DNA of 64,000 nt, taken from Candidatus Latescibacterota bacterium. Its GTDB lineage: Bacteria; Latescibacterota; UBA2968. The stretch spans positions 576,001 through 640,000 of the forward strand of contig OZ242010.1 of the NCBI GenBank assembly GCA_965204745.1. The letters run 5' to 3'. A program made the position numbers and the translations under genes. This document shows positions 1,536 through 43,370 of this stretch, piece by piece (position 1 is the stretch's first letter; each line of letters opens with the position of its first letter). The notes beneath the pieces were generated by a model, which saw only the letters and a list, made by a program, of their open reading frames with translations, was not told the DNA's origin and made no database searches.

Positions 1536-1591
1536 ACTGACAACTGACAACTGACAACTGACAACTGACAACTGACAACTGACAACTGACA
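1536..1591 (+). repeat. Heptamer tandem repeat (ACTGACA)8, interrupted by IS982 and resuming at 2577-2597
   Basis: Read directly. Confidence 0.95.
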
Positions 1592-2576
1592 ATGCGAATT
1601 AAGAGTTGAATCCATCGCGTACTTGTCTTTTCTTGAGGGCTCAGTCATTTCACCCTTAAAGGAAGGAGCACGCGATGGATTGGCAAGATAAACTCATTCA
1701 CTTGTATGTCTATATTTGTCAGCAGTATGACCAAAAGCATCTGTGGTTTTATACGGAACGCATGAGTAATAACGACACGCCGACCTTCACAGATGAAGAA
1801 GTGCTGACGATCTATTTGTTTGGGATCATGCAACAACACACGCAGATCAAGGCGATTTATACCTATACCAAGGATCATTTGTTCGACTGGTTTCCCAATC
1901 TGCCCACTTATGCAGGCTATATCCAGCGGTTGAACCGCTTGTGTGTGGTCTTCGCCCCATTGATTGAACAAATCCAAAAGGATAGTCCCGCAACCGATGT
2001 CTCTGAACACACCTACTTGGTGGATTCCATGCCGATTGTTATGGCACAATCGGCACGTAGCGGTCAGGCATGTGTGGCTGAAGAACAACTGGCCAACAAA
2101 GGCCGCTGCGCTTCCAAAAAGATGTGGTATTACGGCACCAAACTGCACATGGTCGCACAAGACCGCGAGAATGGCCTCCCGAAAGCAGAGTACTTCGGCT
2201 TGACAGGTGCAGCAGAGCATGACCTGACTGCTTTGCGACATGTCTTACCCGTTTTGCGTGATGGACACCTCTACGGCGATAAAATCTACGCCGATCAGCC
2301 CTTAAAAGACACGCTTAGCAAACAGCAGAACCTGATCTTCGAGACGCCGGTGAAGCGAAAAAAGGGGCAAGAAAGCCTGACCGAGGCCGAAAAAGACTTT
2401 TCTCGGGCGGTTTCGAGCATGCGACAGCCTATAGAGGCCTTGTTCAGTTGGATTGAACGAAAGACGAACATCTCGATGGCGTCTCGGGTACGATCCTATG
2501 AGGGCTTACTCGTTCATGTCTTTGGGCGATTGACCGCGGCTTGCTTCTTACTCGCTTTCTACTCTTAATTCGCATT
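1591..2576 (+). mobile_element. IS982-family insertion sequence (ends +/-1 bp)
   Basis: Perfect terminal inverted repeats AATGCGAATTAAGAGT (1591-1606) and ACTCTTAATTCGCATT (2561-2576). The transposase stop codon lies inside the right IR. Confidence 0.9.
1675..2568 (+). CDS. IS982-family DDE transposase
   Basis: FTDEEVLTIYLFG, VDSMP, YYGTKLH, LYGDKIY and RQPIEALFSWI motifs. Confidence 0.92.
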   Translation: MDWQDKLIHLYVYICQQYDQKHLWFYTERMSNNDTPTFTDEEVLTIYLFGIMQQHTQIKAIYTYTKDHLFDWFPNLPTYAGYIQRLNRLCVVFAPLIEQIQKDSPATDVSEHTYLVDSMPIVMAQSARSGQACVAEEQLANKGRCASKKMWYYGTKLHMVAQDRENGLPKAEYFGLTGAAEHDLTALRHVLPVLRDGHLYGDKIYADQPLKDTLSKQQNLIFETPVKRKKGQESLTEAEKDFSRAVSSMRQPIEALFSWIERKTNISMASRVRSYEGLLVHVFGRLTAACFLLAFYS

Positions 2577-4145: not shown

Positions 4146-4232
4146 ACTGACTACTGACTACTGACTACTGACTACTGACCACTTGGGGTTGGGGACTGGT
4201 GGCCTTCTTACCTCTTACCTCTTACCTCTCAC
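4146..4232 (+). repeat. Composite heptamer repeats: (ACTGACT)4 ACTGACC, linker, (CTTACCT)3
   Basis: Read directly. Confidence 0.9.
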
Positions 4233-16740: not shown

Positions 16741-16824
16741 GTTATCATCGCTTCATCGCCGGCAAATCCACCTGACCACTGACCACTGACTACGTTATCA
16801 TCGCTTCATCGCTGGCAAATCCAC
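16741..16824. repeat. 31-bp direct repeat (16741-16771 / 16794-16824) flanking a CTGACCA heptamer tract
   Basis: GTTATCATCGCTTCATCGC[C/T]GGCAAATCCAC twice, separated by CTGACCA CTGACCA CTGACTA C. Confidence 0.92.
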
Positions 16825-23528: not shown

Positions 23529-24290
23529 TCACCTTCCAATAATCACCCCATGGGGATCGACCTCGTCGCGCAAAACGCGCAATTCCTCTGTCTCGGGCGG
23601 CACGGTTTCTCTGACGTGGACGATCCGCCCCAAGTCAAACCCGGTGTTTTCCCGCACGCGGTCAAAGGTCACGCCGGGATGCAGACTTTCGACCTGCATG
23701 CGACAGGTCGTTTCCGAAAAACTCAGCACTGCCAAGTCCGTAATCACGCGATACGGCCCGCCGCCTTTGGGCAACCCGGCCGCTTCTCGCGCACCCGGCC
23801 CGGTGAGATAACCTGGCGTGGTCAAAAAATCCACCTTTTCCACAAAGCGACGGCGGTCGTGGTGCGTGATGATGAGGGTGCGCCAGCAAAAACTCGCAAA
23901 ATCATTGGCGCCGCCACTGCCCGGAAACCGCACGCTCGGCTCGTGGTACTCGCCGATGACCGTGGAATTTAAGTTGCCATAAGCGTCGATTTGCGCGCCG
24001 CCCAAGAAGGCGTAGTCCATCACCCCGCGCTGACAGGCTTCCATGATGTCGCACATGCTCGTCGCCATCAGGGCGCGATGCGTGGTGCGCGAATCGCCCA
24101 CGGAAATCGGCATGGCGGGCAACACCGGGGCCAACCCACCCGCTTCAAACGCCACCAACAACCCCGGCGCGTGCGTCTTTTGCGCCAGCATCGCCGCCGC
24201 ACACGGCGCGCCCGTGCCAACGCCGACCGTCGCGCCATCTTCCAACAACCGAGACGCCACACAAATCATCAGTTCCATTGCGTTGTACAT
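23529..24290 (-). CDS. CoA-transferase beta subunit (glutaconate/3-oxoadipate type)
   Basis: VGTGAP, FEAG, FLGGAQIDAYGNLNS, PGSGGAND. Confidence 0.9.
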   Translation of the reverse strand: MYNAMELMICVASRLLEDGATVGVGTGAPCAAAMLAQKTHAPGLLVAFEAGGLAPVLPAMPISVGDSRTTHRALMATSMCDIMEACQRGVMDYAFLGGAQIDAYGNLNSTVIGEYHEPSVRFPGSGGANDFASFCWRTLIITHHDRRRFVEKVDFLTTPGYLTGPGAREAAGLPKGGGPYRVITDLAVLSFSETTCRMQVESLHPGVTFDRVRENTGFDLGRIVHVRETVPPETEELRVLRDEVDPHGVIIGR

Positions 24291-24728
24291 CGGTCTATCC
24301 GTCAAAGTCGAACTCCGAACACATTGAATAATGTTCACTTTCCCGTGGAATATCGAGATCGTCGTATTTCATGAAAACTCCTTATTCTCGCTTTTGTTGC
24401 ATCGTATTCACTGCCGTTCCGCAGTTCAAAGAAGCCATCCCAACAAGTGCCATCACAACAGACCATCAGCTAAAGCCATCACGCACAGCGCGCAAGTCCG
24501 TCTCGCAACCAACATCCATGTTGCAACCCACTTTGCAGGCTGGCGCATATCGTTCTGTTACAAAAGCGCTTTGCGCTGTGCAAGCCCCTCGGCGTTTGAG
24601 AGCGGCATTTTTTGCCTACTTTTTTTTGCTGTTGAAAAAAAGTAGGTCGCCGAAGGCATCAAAGGCAACCAACGAGGCTGTAGGACCAAACGCCTTAAAT
24701 CAGCAAGCACCACAAATGTCAACACAAC

Positions 24729-25796
24729 CTAGTAATCCCCATTCTCCAGCCTTTGCAACGCTGTTAGGCGAGGTTTGCCGCCGCAGATCTTGAGGTAGGT
24801 TTCAAAACGATCTGTGCCATAGAGGTATTTGTTCAGGAATGCGCGATAGGTGTCGGGGGCGCGCTCGGCGTCTAGCCACGCCTTGAGGTGCGCTTCGTCA
24901 GAGGCGTATTCGCCTGCCATGTTGCCGGGATACGACCCCCAGGGGACGTGGCACACGGCATTGACGCAAAATGCGGGGATCGCGGTCGCATTGGGGTCGC
25001 GGCGGATCTCATCGGTGCTCACAACGCGCTCGGCGCTCACAATCACATGTTTGGCTGCGCGGGGCAAATCCCAATCGGCAACCGTGATGCCCCGAATGCG
25101 GCAATTGCCGCGTCTGTCGCTCTCGTGTACGTGGATCAGTGCCACGTCGGGGTACAGCGCGGGCACGGCGACGAGGGGTTTGCCGGTGAAGGGACATTCG
25201 ATTTTTTTGGCTGCACTCTCGTCGAACGTATCCGTGCCCAGCATGCTGCGAATCGGCAAAAAAGGCACGCCGGTTGCAGCGGCCCGAAACCGACAGGCCA
25301 GCGCGTAATTCGTCCACTCGCACACCGCAACCGCGCCGCTCTCCATTAATCGCCGCGCCTGTGCGGACAACCCGCGCGCTTCCAAGCCCACAATATAGGC
25401 CGCATCTACCCGCGATAAAATTTGTTTTCCACTGCGCGTCCCGGCTGCCAAAATCTGAAAGTCGTGGGTGGTGGTATGACCGGCAAATCCCAGGTTCACG
25501 CGCTCTTGCCGCACAATCTCGTGCAACAACGCGGTGGCGATGCGGTTGCCGCCAAATCCGCCAGACGCCACATAGTCGCCATCGTGGACAAACTGGGCAA
25601 TGGCATCGGAGACAGACATCAACTTGTCGGTCAACGCGCCCTTTTTTTGCCGGAAAAACGCCCGTGCAATGTCGGGATCGGGATCGGTGAACAGAGGGCC
25701 TCTGCCCTTACCTCTTGCCTCTTGCCTCTCGCCTCTTGCTTCGTCGGGATCGGTGAACAGGGGGCCTCGGCCGGTGTTTTCGGAGTTTGTCATCAT
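24729..25796 (-). CDS. CoA-transferase alpha subunit with an in-frame repeat insertion near the N-terminus
   Basis: DKLMSVSDAI, GGFG, AAATGVPFLP, CPFTG, PALYPDVALIHV; duplicated GRGPLFTDPD. Confidence 0.9.
   Translation of the reverse strand: MMTNSENTGRGPLFTDPDEARGERQEARGKGRGPLFTDPDPDIARAFFRQKKGALTDKLMSVSDAIAQFVHDGDYVASGGFGGNRIATALLHEIVRQERVNLGFAGHTTTHDFQILAAGTRSGKQILSRVDAAYIVGLEARGLSAQARRLMESGAVAVCEWTNYALACRFRAAATGVPFLPIRSMLGTDTFDESAAKKIECPFTGKPLVAVPALYPDVALIHVHESDRRGNCRIRGITVADWDLPRAAKHVIVSAERVVSTDEIRRDPNATAIPAFCVNAVCHVPWGSYPGNMAGEYASDEAHLKAWLDAERAPDTYRAFLNKYLYGTDRFETYLKICGGKPRLTALQRLENGDY
25678..25772. repeat. 29-bp direct repeat (25678-25706 / 25744-25772) flanking five CTTGCCT-type heptamers
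   Basis: Read directly; the 66-bp period keeps the reading frame. Confidence 0.92.
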
Positions 25797-25810
25797 TTTG
25801 CAGTCTCACT

Positions 25811-26617
25811 TCACAACGCGGTCCAACCGCCATCCACCAGCAAGGTATGCCCCGTGATGAGATCGGCAGCAGGGCTGGCTAAGAACACCACGGCGCCCAC
25901 CACATCTTCGGGCCGTCCAACGCGGCCGAGGGGGATGCGGGAAAGCACGTCTTCGCGCAAGTGGGCATCGTCAAATGTCGATTGGGTCAACGGGGTCAAA
26001 ATAAATGTCGGCCCCACGGCATTGACCGTAATCCGATGGGGCGCCCACTCCACTGCCAACACGCGCGTCAGGTTGACGACACCGGCTTTGCTCGCACAAT
26101 ACGCCGCGCGTTTGTAATAGCCCACCACGCCGTTTTGCGATGCGATGTTGACGATTTTTCCACCCCCCGTTTCGACCATGGATCGCGCCGCGCATTGAGA
26201 CATAAAGAACAGGCCCTTTAGGTTCACGTCCAGCACCGCGTCCCAATCGGCTTCTGTGACGTCGAGTGCGTCTTTGGGGATGTTGATCCCCGCATTGTTC
26301 ACCAGCACGTCGATTCGCCCGTACGCGTCTAACACGCGGCGAACCACCGAGTCGATAGCCGCGAGATTCGGCAGGTGCAAGGGCAAGGGCAATGCCCGGC
26401 GTCCCAGATTTTCAATCGCTTCGCACACCCCGTCCAACGCATCGATCTTTTGCGGCACTTCGCACACGGTCACATCTGCGCCCGCCTCGGCCACTGCCAG
26501 CGCGATGGCCCGCCCAATGCCCGATCCGCCGCCGGTTACCAATACCACGTTGTCATCCAATCGCATGCTGGGCAAGACCATTGCGGCACTCCTCTGATAT
26601 CTTTCGGCGAGGGACAT
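25811..26617 (-). CDS. SDR family oxidoreductase
   Basis: TGGGSGIG, NNAG, YCASK, ITGHTLLVDGG. Confidence 0.95.
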   Translation of the reverse strand: MSLAERYQRSAAMVLPSMRLDDNVVLVTGGGSGIGRAIALAVAEAGADVTVCEVPQKIDALDGVCEAIENLGRRALPLPLHLPNLAAIDSVVRRVLDAYGRIDVLVNNAGINIPKDALDVTEADWDAVLDVNLKGLFFMSQCAARSMVETGGGKIVNIASQNGVVGYYKRAAYCASKAGVVNLTRVLAVEWAPHRITVNAVGPTFILTPLTQSTFDDAHLREDVLSRIPLGRVGRPEDVVGAVVFLASPAADLITGHTLLVDGGWTAL

Positions 26618-26679
26618 AGTCACTGCTCGCCTTTGAACGGGTTGTCGCCAGTTGTACCCCGCCCGTGGCTAAAATCCCT

Positions 26680-26781
26680 CTTGCGTCTTGCCTCTTGCGT
26701 CTTACCTCTTACCTCTTGCGTCTCGCGTCTTACCTCTTGCCTCTTACCTCTCCCGCCTTTCACCTCTTGCCTCTTCCCTCT
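26680..26781 (+). repeat. Degenerate heptamer array CT[T/C][A/G]C[C/G]T, continuing after the IS110 at 28073-28085
   Basis: CTTGCGT CTTGCCT CTTGCGT CTTACCT CTTACCT ... Confidence 0.9.
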
Positions 26782-26794
26782 TGTATCTTGGGCT

Positions 26795-27048: not shown

Positions 27049-28056
27049 ATGTCGAACGCTCACCCCGCTTTCGCCGGCATTGATGTCAGTGCCCGCACGT
27101 TGTCTGTTGCCCTGTCCAGACCTGGACAAGCTGTCATGCAAGCGACCTTTGACAATGATCCCCAAGCCCATAAGCGGTTGCTGAAGTGGCTCACCAAGGG
27201 CGGGCACATGGTCTCTGTCTGCCTCGAAGCGACCGGGCTTTACAGCTTGGGGGTGGCCTTGGCCTTGCATCGGCATCGCCACACGCAGGTCATGGTCGTC
27301 AATCCCAAAGCGATGAGCAAGTACGGTCAAGCCTGCATGCAACGAGCCAAGACGGATGCGAAGGATGCGTTGTTGATCATGGATTATGCCGAGCGCATGC
27401 CGTTTGTGCCTTGGCAAGCGCCGAGTGAGCAACGGCTCCAACTGCAAGCCCTCACCAGACGCATTGACCAACTCAAGCAGGAGATCATCCGCGAACAGAG
27501 CCGCAACCACGCGCAAAGCTACCACATCCAGAGCACACGTCTCATCGCACGCGATATTCAGGTGAATATTCGACACCTCAAACGCCGGATTGCCTACTTG
27601 GAAGACCAAGCCCTCGATCTCGTTTTGCACGATGAGACCCAAAAGCGCGCCTACCAACACCTCTGCTCTACGCCTGGCATCGCACAAACGAGCGCCTTGC
27701 GGCTCTTGGCCGAGTTGACCCTTTTGCCAGAGGAGATGCAACCGCCCCAGTGGGTCGCACATGCAGACCTGGATCCCAAACCCAAACAATCCGGGACTGC
27801 CAATCCACAAAGACGCATCTCGAAAACCGGGAATAAGTACCTCCGTCATGCCCTCTATATGCCTGCCTGGGTGGCCAGCAGACACGAAGTCCATGTCAAA
27901 GCCTTCTATGACCAACTCATTGCCCGCGGCAAGAAACCTTTGCAGGCTATCGTTGCGGTGATGCGAAAGTTGCTCCATTCGATCTGGGGCATGGTGCGGC
28001 ATGACCAAGATTTTGAGGGCGAGAAATTCTATCGAATCACCCCGAAAACCCCTTGA
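27049..28056 (+). CDS. IS110-family DEDD recombinase
   Basis: GIDVS, CLEATG, KTDAKDA, TPGIA, QSG catalytic Ser, ISKTGNKYLR; AGGAGG RBS. Confidence 0.96.
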   Translation: MSNAHPAFAGIDVSARTLSVALSRPGQAVMQATFDNDPQAHKRLLKWLTKGGHMVSVCLEATGLYSLGVALALHRHRHTQVMVVNPKAMSKYGQACMQRAKTDAKDALLIMDYAERMPFVPWQAPSEQRLQLQALTRRIDQLKQEIIREQSRNHAQSYHIQSTRLIARDIQVNIRHLKRRIAYLEDQALDLVLHDETQKRAYQHLCSTPGIAQTSALRLLAELTLLPEEMQPPQWVAHADLDPKPKQSGTANPQRRISKTGNKYLRHALYMPAWVASRHEVHVKAFYDQLIARGKKPLQAIVAVMRKLLHSIWGMVRHDQDFEGEKFYRITPKTP

Positions 28057-28578: not shown

Positions 28579-28620
28579 GGTCAGTAGTCAGTAGTCAGTG
28601 GTCAGTAGTCAGTGGTCAGT
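28579..28620 (+). repeat. Heptamer tract (GGTCAGT/AGTCAGT)6 abutting the folK start codon
   Basis: Read directly. Confidence 0.92.
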
Positions 28621-28891
28621 CCCCCCGCCATTCCACCCCGCAAGTGAGAGGCGAGACGCAAGAGGCAAGAAGGCCACACCGCCATTCAAACCCGCCATTC
28701 CACCCCGCAAGTGAGAGGCGAGACGCAAGAGGCGAGAAGGCCACACCGCCATTCAACACCGCAAGTGAGAGGCGAGACGCAAGAGGTGAGAAGGCCACAC
28801 CGCCATTCAACCCCGCCATTCAACCCCATAAGTGAGAGGCGAGACGCAAGAGGCGAGAAGGCCACACCGCCATTCAACACCGCAAGTGAGA
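28621..28891 (+). repeat. Tandem array of 54/67-bp units with core AAGTGAGAGGCGAGACGCAAGAGG..AGAAGGCCACACCGCCATTCAA
   Basis: Cores start at 28642, 28709, 28763 and 28830, with a partial at 28884 (spacing 67, 54, 67, 54). Confidence 0.9.
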
Positions 28892-43287: not shown

Positions 43288-43370
43288 ACTGACAACTGAC
43301 AACTGACAACTGACAACTGACAACTGACAACTGACAACTGACAACTGACAACTGACAACTGACAACTGAC
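43288..43370 (+). repeat. Heptamer tandem repeat (ACTGACA), about 12 copies, ending in the hflC stop codon
   Basis: Read directly. Confidence 0.95.

What the first reader, a model, noticed from the sequence alone, without database searches (positions are those of the whole stretch)
25678..25772. In-frame heptamer insertion with a 29-bp duplication inside a CoA-transferase gene
Seen: TCGGGATCGGTGAACAG[A/G]GGGCCTC[T/G]GCC occurs twice around CTTACCT CTTGCCT CTTGCCT CTCGCCT CTTGCTT CG. The total is 66 bp, giving GRGPLFTDPD-EARGERQEARGK-GRGPLFTDPD. This is the same architecture as 16741-16824 but uses the other heptamer family and lies in coding DNA. Inference: two independent cases point to one mechanism that writes heptamer tracts into new sites with ~30-bp duplications, with frame-preserving events surviving in genes. 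I know of no described bacterial system that does this.
Basis: partly seen in the sequence, partly recalled or inferred. Interest (0 to 1): 0.8.

Follow-up and report, generated by a model that had tools for sequence, protein, structure and literature searches.

The report
Stray CRISPR spacer inside a gene
The 66-base insert in this CoA-transferase gene looks like a CRISPR spacer that the cell's spacer-integrating enzyme placed in the wrong spot, one of about 28 such stray insertions in this genome, many of which add 22 or 24 amino acids to proteins.

Summary
Window 25678-25706 and 25744-25772 are a 29-bp direct repeat (2 mismatches) around 37 bp of heptamers. This is an in-frame 66-bp insert in a CoA-transferase A-like gene.

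- **The insert is real and recent.** 19 of 19 same-genus orthologues lack it. In public contigs, 2 of 4 runs carry it and 2 of 4, about 99% identical, skip exactly 66 bp.
- **It is not heptamer-specific.** Isolated "duplicate-insert-duplicate" units genome-wide pile up at periods 66 (about 30+36) and 72 (about 37+35). Most inserts are unique non-heptamer sequence.
- **The periods match the genome's CRISPR arrays.** One has a 30-nt repeat with 35-39-nt spacers; the other has a 37-nt repeat and modal period 72.
- **Six events are exact insertions.** Relatives show 66- or 72-bp gaps at these sites.

Best reading: off-target spacer integration by Cas1-Cas2, here using heptamer-tract DNA as the spacer. 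This is a known phenomenon but rarely documented in nature.

Caveat: the 30-nt array has no cas1/cas2 beside it, and the only Cas1 found is type I-C.

The parts
25678..25706 (.). Left (+ strand) copy of the duplicated 29-bp target; in gene sense it is the downstream copy, next to the conserved core
   Evidence: It differs from the empty-site allele in runs X1 and X5 at one base (T at 25703).
25707..25743 (.). 37-bp insert made of CTTGCCT-family heptamers; read as the stray spacer
   Evidence: Its length equals the modal spacer length of the 30-nt-repeat array (37 nt in 4 of 10 spacers). No exact donor exists in the genome: the best matches have 3 mismatches, and 178 places lie within 5 mismatches.
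25744..25772 (.). Right (+ strand) copy of the duplicated target; in gene sense the upstream copy
   Evidence: In run X15 it has A at 25761 and then equals the empty-site allele.
24729..25796 (-). CoA-transferase subunit A-like gene (355 aa) carrying the in-frame 22-codon insert at residues 19-40
   Evidence: One search gives the ORF. PF01144 CoA_trans, E 8.3e-31, residues 60-282. One search gives only weak 3-oxoacid CoA-transferase A hits, below cut-off.
23529..24338 (-). Downstream CoA-transferase subunit B-like gene (269 aa), the likely partner subunit
   Evidence: (PF01144, E 2.5e-30).
16741..16771 (.). Left copy of a 31-bp duplicated target at the second site of the same kind
16772..16793 (.). 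22-bp CTGACCA-family heptamer insert at the second site. It is shorter than a spacer by two units if it began as 36 bp (inference).
   Evidence: Identical 22-mers occur in many tracts.
16794..16824. Right copy of the 31-bp target. My reading: it holds the stop codon of the - strand gene to its right, so that gene is untouched.
   Evidence: Five relatives show one copy of the gene-proximal part, and the sequence upstream cannot be aligned.

Best explanation
The insert is an off-target (non-CRISPR-site) spacer integration by a CRISPR adaptation integrase (Cas1-Cas2, probably with Cas4).

Proposed steps:
1. A 37-bp prespacer was cut from one of the genome's many CTTGCCT-type heptamer tracts.
2. 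The integrase joined its two 3' ends to opposite strands of the chromosome 29-30 bp apart, inside the CoA-transferase gene. This is the spacing it normally uses across a 30-nt CRISPR repeat.
3. Gap filling duplicated those 29 bp on either side of the insert.
4. Because 29 + 37 = 66 bp is 22 codons with no stop in frame, the gene stays open. It keeps an intact GRGPLFTDPD motif next to its core, so the allele could persist.

Shown: the anatomy, the empty sites, the two length classes that match the two arrays, and the presence of cas genes. Inferred: the enzyme, the order of steps, the heptamer tract as donor, and the later 7-bp slippage that changed insert length at other heptamer sites.
For: 1. 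**Derived and recent.** 19 of 19 same-genus orthologues have one copy and no insert. Contigs from runs X1 and X5 (2+5 and 5+6 other letters over their laid parts) skip exactly 66 bp, from 25695 to 25762. X13 and X15 carry the insert. So 2 of 4 runs are filled and 2 of 4 empty.
2. **A sharp length signature.** Among 152 isolated duplicate-insert-duplicate pairs with a unique duplicate (distance 30-300), 19 fall at 63-68 and 7 at 72-74. In a stricter scan of distances 40-110, 11 of 34 fall at 66 and 4 at 72. The binomial P for at least 11 of 34 in one bin is 9e-13.
3. **The lengths match the arrays.** The 14 non-heptamer units of class 1 have a mean duplicate of 29.8 bp and a mean insert of 36.3 bp. 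The array at G000:C1:845573-846267 has 11 repeats of 30 nt and spacers of 35-39 nt. The 5 class 2 units have duplicates of 35-38 bp and inserts of 34-37 bp. The array at C1:1458657-1472744 has 194 repeats of about 37 nt with a modal period of 72, in 70 of 193 intervals.
4. **The finding fits class 1 exactly**, with 29 + 37 = 66.
5. **Cas genes are present.** A complete type I-C set (cas3, cas5, cas8c, cas7, cas4, cas1, cas2) abuts array 2. Its Cas1 scores 422.8 bits on the type I-C model, above the 385 cut-off. cas6, cas8b-like, cas7 and cas5 abut array 1.
6. **Exact empty sites in relatives at six events.**
   - The finding.
   - C1:2001156: a 66-bp gap in G018.
   - C1:3018245: a 66-bp gap in 5 of 5 relatives.
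   - C1:1311683: a 66-bp gap in 4 of 5 relatives, with the insert shared by G018.
   - C1:3936775: a 66-bp gap in two G018 copies.
   - C1:1640027: a 72-bp gap in 3 aligned relatives, with the insert shared by G018.
7. **The non-heptamer inserts look foreign.** Most do not recur in the genome by a central 16-mer count (17 of 19, two not tested), as expected for foreign spacers.
8. **No heptamer spacers in the true arrays.** None of the 10 + 193 array spacers is heptameric (highest 7-periodicity 0.48). Such a spacer in a working array would target the chromosome.
9. **A possible site preference.** Duplicates begin with GT, or end with AC, at 9 of 42 ends against a background of 5.3% (P = 3e-4, a post hoc test). 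Both repeats begin with GT on the + strand.
Against: - The 30-nt-repeat array, whose geometry the finding matches, has no cas1, cas2, cas4 or cas3 beside it. A DDE transposase gene lies between the array and cas5. The genome yields a single Cas1 and a single Cas2, both type I-C and both next to the 37-nt array. The cognate integrase for class 1 is therefore not shown. It may have been lost, sit on an unbinned plasmid, or act in trans.
- The duplicated targets resemble the CRISPR repeats only weakly (class 1 z = 2.4, class 2 z = 0.13).
- No protospacer was found for any unique insert, so foreign origin and any PAM remain unverified.
- About 9 of about 28 units carry heptamer inserts, although tracts make up only 0.68% of the genome. 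This bias has no demonstrated cause.
- Only 19 of 861 heptamer tracts show flanking duplicates, so this process does not explain most tracts.
- Four of the ten non-window events tested in relatives could not be aligned, and one was complex.
Confidence: 0.85

Rival explanations
1. A dedicated heptamer 'writer': a reverse transcriptase or polymerase copies a heptamer template at staggered nicks about 30 bp apart, much as telomerase or target-primed reverse transcription would.
For: About 9 independent units with 23-33-bp duplicates carry heptamer inserts from both families. Their inserts start in a constant phase, CTTGCCT, CTTACCT or CTTGCGT in 4 of 5 family-2 cases examined, or CTGACCA. Heptamers are far over-represented among inserts.
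Against: The same geometry carries 19 unique non-heptamer inserts. Unexpanded heptamer inserts are of spacer length (37 bp here). The only RVT_1 gene is an Ec67-type retron RT-Toprim 4.4 Mb away, with no heptamers nearby. 842 of 861 tracts lack flanking duplicates. The constant phase fits PAM-guided prespacer trimming equally well.
Confidence: 0.05
2. Error-prone break or fork repair with template switching (filler DNA). A stalled 3' end copies a stretch elsewhere, such as a heptamer tract, and returns upstream of where it left, leaving a duplication around a templated insert.
For: The left copy's T at 25703 lies 4 bp from the junction and makes the sequence more heptamer-like, which could be a junction artefact. 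Tracts are plausible sites for slippage.
Against: Repair of this kind predicts broad length distributions, not two sharp classes that equal the two CRISPR periods. It also predicts inserts templated from the same genome, yet most non-heptamer inserts do not recur in it by a central 16-mer count (17 of 19, two not tested).
Confidence: 0.07
3. Not an event at all: either an assembly artefact or an ordinary 22-residue protein repeat. This genome has many 66-bp-period leucine-rich-repeat-like arrays.
For: One search lists at least 10 coding arrays with a period of 66 bp. The genome is a single-contig assembly rich in repeats.
Against: Independent contigs from X13 and X15 hold the insert, and X1 and X5 hold the precise empty site. 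19 of 19 orthologues lack it. The insert is heptamer DNA unrelated to the gene. The scans excluded units with a third copy.
Confidence: 0.01

Closest known systems
Off-target ('non-canonical') spacer integration that spawns 'neo-CRISPR' units (Nivala, Shipman and Church 2018). The paper itself is not held. I saw only passages that cite it, in PMC7054753, 10.1101/148544 and PMC6698737.
   Same: A spacer-sized insert at a non-CRISPR chromosomal site, flanked by a duplicated target that plays the part of a repeat. It is made by the adaptation integrase.
   Different: That work used E. coli over-producing Cas1-Cas2 with supplied oligonucleotides (passage). Natural evidence was called circumstantial, in two other species (passage). 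Here about 28 fixed or polymorphic natural units occur in one genome, in two length classes matching two arrays. Many are in frame inside genes, and about a third use self heptamer DNA.
In vitro off-target integration by Pyrococcus furiosus Cas1-Cas2 (PMC6698737; passages only)
   Same: Integration at non-CRISPR sites about 30 bp apart, with preferred G and C bases at the borders. Here class 1 duplicates start with G or end with C at 19 of 42 ends, against a 28% background (P = 0.014).
   Different: That was a plasmid substrate in vitro. The off-target sites there shared features with the repeat, whereas here resemblance to the repeat is weak.
Short tandemly repeated repetitive (STRR) heptamers of filamentous cyanobacteria (recalled; no call)
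   Same: Hundreds of tandem heptamer tracts, mostly intergenic, in a few sequence families.
   Different: The units differ (ACTGACN and AGA[G/C]GNN here). Relatives' record titles name Candidatus Latescibacterota, not cyanobacteria. STRRs are not, to my knowledge, described with 30-bp flanking duplications.
Transposon and casposon target-site duplication (recalled; no call)
   Same: Staggered strand transfer followed by gap repair gives a direct repeat of the target.
   Different: Those duplications are short (recalled: 2-15 bp) and flank one defined element. Here the duplicate is of repeat length and every insert is different.

Membership tests
Off-target CRISPR spacer integration (neo-CRISPR unit) | Target duplication equal in length to a CRISPR repeat of the same genome | tested here: met
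   A 29-bp duplicate against a 30-nt repeat. The class 1 mean is 29.8 bp. Class 2 duplicates of 35-38 bp match the repeat of about 37 nt.
Off-target CRISPR spacer integration (neo-CRISPR unit) | Insert length within the spacer length range of that array | tested here: met
   A 37-bp insert; array 1 spacers are 35-39 nt, with 37 nt in 4 of 10.
Off-target CRISPR spacer integration (neo-CRISPR unit) | An empty site (one target copy, no insert) in relatives or other strains | tested here: met
   19 of 19 orthologues. Contigs from runs X1 and X5 skip exactly 66 bp.
Off-target CRISPR spacer integration (neo-CRISPR unit) | A cognate Cas1-Cas2 integrase encoded in the genome | tested here: inconclusive
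   One Cas1 and one Cas2 were found, both type I-C and both beside the 37-nt array. None lies beside the 30-nt array, where a transposase gene sits next to cas5. Relatives often have two Cas1 types.
Off-target CRISPR spacer integration (neo-CRISPR unit) | Insert derived from a protospacer next to a PAM | tested here: inconclusive
   No exact donor for the 37-mer (best 3 mismatches). The constant phase of heptamer inserts would fit a CCT or CCA motif upstream, but this is inference only. No protospacers were found for unique inserts.
Off-target CRISPR spacer integration (neo-CRISPR unit) | Integration site resembles the leader-repeat junction or the repeat | tested here: inconclusive
   Whole-repeat similarity is weak (z = 2.4 and 0.13). 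GT/AC ends are enriched at 9 of 42 (P = 3e-4, post hoc). The finding's own duplicate has neither end.
Off-target CRISPR spacer integration (neo-CRISPR unit) | Direct demonstration that the integrase makes the product | not testable with these tools
   Needs biochemistry or in vivo acquisition assays.
Cyanobacterial STRR heptamer repeats | Tandem heptamers of the STRR consensus units in heterocystous cyanobacteria | tested here: not met
   The units here are ACTGACN and AGA[G/C]GNN. Relatives are titled Candidatus Latescibacterota. The STRR consensus is recalled, not fetched.
CoA-transferase family I, subunit A (the host gene) | A CoA_trans domain with an adjacent subunit B gene | tested here: met
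   PF01144 at E 8.3e-31 and 2.5e-30 in the two adjacent genes. Substrate specificity was not tested, and NCBIfam hits are below cut-off.

The most novel reading that the evidence does not exclude
In this sponge-associated Latescibacterota lineage, CRISPR adaptation acts as a standing endogenous mutagen.

- It writes 22- and 24-codon in-frame insertions into conserved genes: a CoA-transferase, an enolase-superfamily enzyme, and a single-chain RNA-polymerase-like protein.
- Some of these insertions survive speciation.
- It also preferentially captures heptamer-tract DNA, so it seeds new tracts at fresh loci that then grow by slippage.

Under this reading, stray spacer integration would be an unrecognised natural source both of protein insertions and of microsatellite dispersal.
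Probability: 0.3. Interest if true: 0.8.

Novelty: new member of a known kind. Interest (0 to 1): 0.65.

Why it matters
Off-target spacer integration has been shown mainly in engineered E. coli. One passage I read says it is unclear whether it is common in nature (10.1101/148544).

This genome offers a natural record with several useful features:
- Two integrase 'rulers' can be read from about 28 stray units.
- The events range in age from polymorphic within a species to shared between species.
- Frame-preserving events are enriched.

It puts a cost and a by-product of CRISPR adaptation on a testable footing. Cas1-Cas2 emerges as a source of insertions of about 22-24 residues in proteins, and of new repeat tracts. 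It also shows that self DNA (heptamers) is captured but survives only outside functional arrays.

For the scan, it turns an apparently unknown 'heptamer writer' into a known enzyme acting off target.

Tried and rejected
1. **Cyanobacterial STRR idea.** I considered this from recall and dropped it when relatives' titles named Candidatus Latescibacterota.
2. **RT-based writer.** The only RVT_1 gene is an Ec67-type retron RT-Toprim, with no heptamers in its 3.5-kb surroundings.
3. **Resemblance of the duplicated targets to the CRISPR repeats.** It is weak, so I do not use it as support.
4. **Protospacers.** The 37-mer insert of event C1:2001156 matched nothing but itself in 31 family genomes at up to 3 mismatches. 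Two 25-mers gave 0 exact hits in viral contigs. This says nothing about absence.
5. **Empty-site tests that failed to inform.**
   - C1:2794051 has no orthologous match.
   - At C1:851031 the flank is a dispersed element of about 430 bp, and relatives align only beyond the event.
   - At C1:2766888 relatives align only to query 1-269.
   - At C1:683263, G018 has a different acidic repeat there.
   - At C1:1276291 relatives lack 183 bp, not 66, so it is complex.
6. **Units dropped from the clean lists.**
   - C1:1012925: the insert partly repeats the duplicate.
   - C1:4557955: the 66-bp unit is tandemly amplified at least 3 times.
   - C1:405726, 3851490 and 3978786: these lie inside dispersed G-rich or palindromic repeat families.
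   - C1:4984909: a 27-bp duplicate at period 72, which is doubtful.
   - C1:3580490, 4900557 and 4902373: copies of the same duplicate as 3582370, counted once.
7. **The array-1 repeat in relatives.** Only single near-matches turned up, in 2 of 24 relatives. Cas1 was found in 18 of 24 relatives. Neither result locates the missing integrase.
8. **Residues modulo 7.** The insert lengths at expanded heptamer sites fit 65-69 modulo 7, but that range covers 5 of 7 residues, so it is not a test.
9. **Literature.**
   - 'neo-CRISPR' is held by 1 paper.
   - 'Ectopic spacer' is held by 35 papers. The 12 listed concern integration within arrays, judging by title or abstract, and passages of one were read.
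   - 'Heptamer repeats' together with 'Latescibacter' gave 0 papers.
   - I found no report of natural in-frame gene insertions made by spacer integration in these searches. That is not proof that none exists. Supplements are closed and I did not consult them.
10. **Tools.** PMC5832444 is not held. One search failed on a frame error of mine, which I corrected.
Full report
**What is there**

On the + strand, window 25678-25706 and 25744-25772 are 29-bp direct repeats that differ at two positions. They enclose 37 bp of CTTGCCT-type heptamers at 25707-25743.

The - strand ORF 24729-25796 reads straight through. It gives MMTNSENT-GRGPLFTDPD-EARGERQEARGK-GRGPLFTDPD-PDIARAFF.... Pfam places CoA_trans at residues 60-282, and a second CoA_trans gene follows at 23529-24338.

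A 31-bp repeat at 16741-16771 and 16794-16824 surrounds 22 bp of CTGACCA-type heptamers.

**The insert is derived, real and recent**

- A protein search of 41 genomes matched in 39, and 20 loci were fetched.
- All 19 same-genus orthologues begin M..SENTGRGPLFTDPDPD... with one copy and no heptamers.
- More distant homologues align from about residue 26-33 onward, that is from the copy next to the core.
- Public contigs laid on 25300-26100 gave four results.
  - X13 spans the whole stretch with 0 differences. It may be the window's own source sample.
  - X15, from another study, covers both junctions in pieces (records 16, 17, 19 and 21).
  - One contig from X1 and one from X5 run from 25695 straight to 25762, skipping 66 bp, with few other differences.
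- The allele is therefore polymorphic among near-identical strains, filled in 2 of 4 runs and empty in 2 of 4.
- The empty allele reads A at the first variable position and G at the second. The left copy thus differs from it only by T at 25703. The right copy differs only by G at 25761, and X15 still has A there.

**The genome background**

The window lies at G000:C1:576001-640000 of a 5.48-Mb single contig with 56.5% G+C.

Relatives' record titles read Candidatus Latescibacterota. Most runs that hold the stretch are labelled sponge metagenome.

Tandem Repeats Finder gives 4547 rows, of which 1195 have period 7. They fall into two families, ACTGACN and AGA[G/C]GNN. After merging there are 861 tracts covering 37,395 bp, or 0.68% of the genome, and 14 of them lie in the window.

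Only 19 of the 861 tracts have an adjacent flanking direct repeat scoring 12 or more, against 8 of 2583 shifted controls. The clean cases have duplicates of 23-33 bp.

**The decisive turn**

I then scanned for any isolated duplicate-insert-duplicate unit, whatever the insert. The duplicate had to be unique in the genome, with no third copy nearby.

- The first scan gave 152 pairs at distances 30-300. Of these, 19 fell at 63-68 and 7 at 72-74, while other 3-bp bins held 0-4.
- A stricter scan over distances 40-110 gave 34 pairs. Eleven fell at 66, one at 67, four at 72 and one at 73. The binomial P for at least 11 of 34 in one bin is 9e-13.
- Most inserts in these peaks are non-heptamer sequence that, by a central 16-mer count, does not recur in the genome (17 of the 19 counted units; two were not tested).
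- The 14 non-heptamer units of class 1 have duplicates of 24-32 bp (mean 29.8) and inserts of 34-42 bp (mean 36.3). The 5 class 2 units have duplicates of 35-38 bp and inserts of 34-37 bp.

**These are the genome's two CRISPR geometries**

| | Array 1 | Array 2 |
|---|---|---|
| Position (G000:C1) | 845573-846267 | 1458657-1472744 |
| Repeats | 11 of 30 nt | 194 of about 37 nt |
| Spacers or periods | 37 nt x4, 36 x3, 35 x2, 39 x1 | 72 x70, 73 x51, 71 x37, 74 x18, 75 x10, 76 x6, 123 x1 |
| Neighbouring genes | DDE transposase, cas5, cas7 (DevR), cas8b-like, cas6 | cas2, cas1, cas4, cas7, cas8c, cas5, cas3 (type I-C) |

- No cas1, cas2, cas4 or cas3 lies beside array 1.
- Whole-genome searches find one Cas1 and one Cas2, both beside array 2. 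That Cas1 passes the type I-C model.
- The finding, at 29 + 37 = 66, is a textbook class 1 unit.

**Empty sites for other units**

- C1:2001156 (29+37): a 66-bp gap in G018.
- C1:3018245 (31+35): a 66-bp gap in 5 of 5 relatives.
- C1:1311683 (32+34), inside an enolase-superfamily gene: a 66-bp gap in 4 of 5 relatives. The insert is present, and diverged, in G018.
- C1:3936775 (29+37): a 66-bp gap in two G018 copies of a multi-copy gene.
- C1:1640027 (37+35): a 72-bp gap in G016, G019 and G013. The insert is present in G018, and G001 aligned only beyond it.
- Four further units could not be aligned, and one was complex (see Tried and rejected).
- At the window's second site, relatives show one copy of the gene-proximal part of the duplicate, and the rest is not alignable.

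**Frame**

15 of 19 stray non-heptamer units have a period divisible by 3, against 85 of 203 array periods (pooled one-sided Fisher p = 0.002). The separate tests gave p = 0.07 and 0.11.

Units with periods of 66 or 72 mostly lie in long open frames of up to 1055 codons. The four out-of-frame units lie in frames of 217 codons or fewer.

**Heptamer inserts**

- About 9 independent units carry them, all with class 1 duplicates.
- Unexpanded inserts are of spacer length: 37 bp here and 39 bp at C1:2296690.
- Two copies of one repeated segment carry the same duplicate with inserts of 50 and 43 bp, one unit apart. Tract length therefore changes after insertion.
- No array spacer is heptameric. That fits removal of self-targeting spacers from working arrays, which is inference.
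- Heptamers are far commoner among inserts than their 0.68% share of the genome would give. Why is unknown.
- Family-2 inserts start in the same phase in 4 of the 5 counted cases I examined, often after a duplicate ending in AC. This would fit trimming next to a CCT or CCA motif. The sample is small and the point is inference.

**Site preference**

Whole-repeat resemblance is weak. However, 9 of 42 class 1 duplicate ends are GT on their strand, against a 5.3% background (P = 3e-4, post hoc). G-first or C-last occurs at 19 of 42 ends against 28% (P = 0.014). A passage on P. furiosus reports preferred G and C at borders about 30 bp apart (PMC6698737).

**What is known**

- A passage in 10.1101/148544 calls the products neo-CRISPR arrays. 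It says it is unclear whether they are common, and that the evidence in two other species is circumstantial.
- The primary paper is not held.
- I therefore file this as a new natural member of a known kind. It is notable for its number of events, its two rulers, the in-frame gene hits, the population polymorphism and the heptamer spacers.

**Main weakness**

The integrase that would measure 30 bp is not encoded in this chromosome as assembled. Relatives often carry two Cas1 types. Loss of the module or a plasmid location is therefore plausible, but neither is shown.

Noticed in passing
window 1536-1592, 4146-4229, 26677-26783, 28580-28620, 43288-43370 and others; genome-wide: There are 861 merged tandem heptamer tracts in two families (ACTGACN and AGA[G/C]GNN), 14 of them in the window. 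They are often paired with G-rich GGGGTTGGGC motifs in composite units. Their origin is unexplained, and only 19 have flanking duplicates.
   Followed up: partly
window 28624-28891: A higher-order tandem repeat with periods of 54, 67 and 121 bp. Each unit holds the same heptamer-like block between copies of CCGCCATTCAAC-type sequence. It looks like amplification of one unit rather than separate insertions.
   Followed up: no
window 26677-26783 and 27049-28056: A 107-bp heptamer tract lies just upstream of the SDR gene that precedes the CoA-transferase gene. An IS110-family transposase gene sits about 270 bp further on.
   Followed up: no
G000:C1:1638351-1641507 (L128:5352-8507, - strand): A 1051-aa single polypeptide with RNA polymerase beta-like (Rpb2 domains 3 and 6) and beta-prime-like (Rpb1 domain 2) segments, far below the rpoB and rpoC cut-offs. 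It may be a single-chain two-barrel RNA polymerase homologue. It carries the 72-bp in-frame stray unit that is shared with G018.
   Followed up: partly
G000:C1:5010687-5012423 (L127:1188-2924): The genome's only RVT_1 gene is an Ec67-family retron RT-Toprim fusion (NF038237, 708 bits; PADLOC RT-Toprim_I-C).
   Followed up: yes
G000:C1:845186-845282: A perfect 30+37+30 stray unit lies about 290 bp beyond the degenerate (trailer) end of the 30-nt-repeat array. Its duplicate begins GTTGAAAT, loosely like the repeat's GTTTCAAT.
   Followed up: no
G000:C1:846310-847407 (L067:111-1208): A DDE transposase gene sits between array 1 and cas5, where adaptation genes might be expected. The I-B-like locus has cas6, cas8b-like, cas7 and cas5 only.
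   Followed up: partly
G000, genome-wide: Other dense repeat families are present. They include 9-mer arrays (AAAAGGCAC in 115 rows and AATCCGCGT in 66 rows) and palindromic GGGGTACAACTGGCGACAGCCAGTTCAAAGGC-type elements. A dispersed element of about 430 bp has more than 20 copies at 84-92% identity.
   Followed up: no
G000:C1:1276291-1276590: Relatives lack 183 bp here. The 66-bp unit is followed by 117 bp ending in a third, diverged copy of the duplicate, which may reflect successive events.
   Followed up: partly
G000:C1:1458657-1472744: Two of the 193 spacers of the type I-C array have a second exact copy in the genome. These could be self-targets or duplicated spacers, and I did not resolve which.
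   Followed up: no
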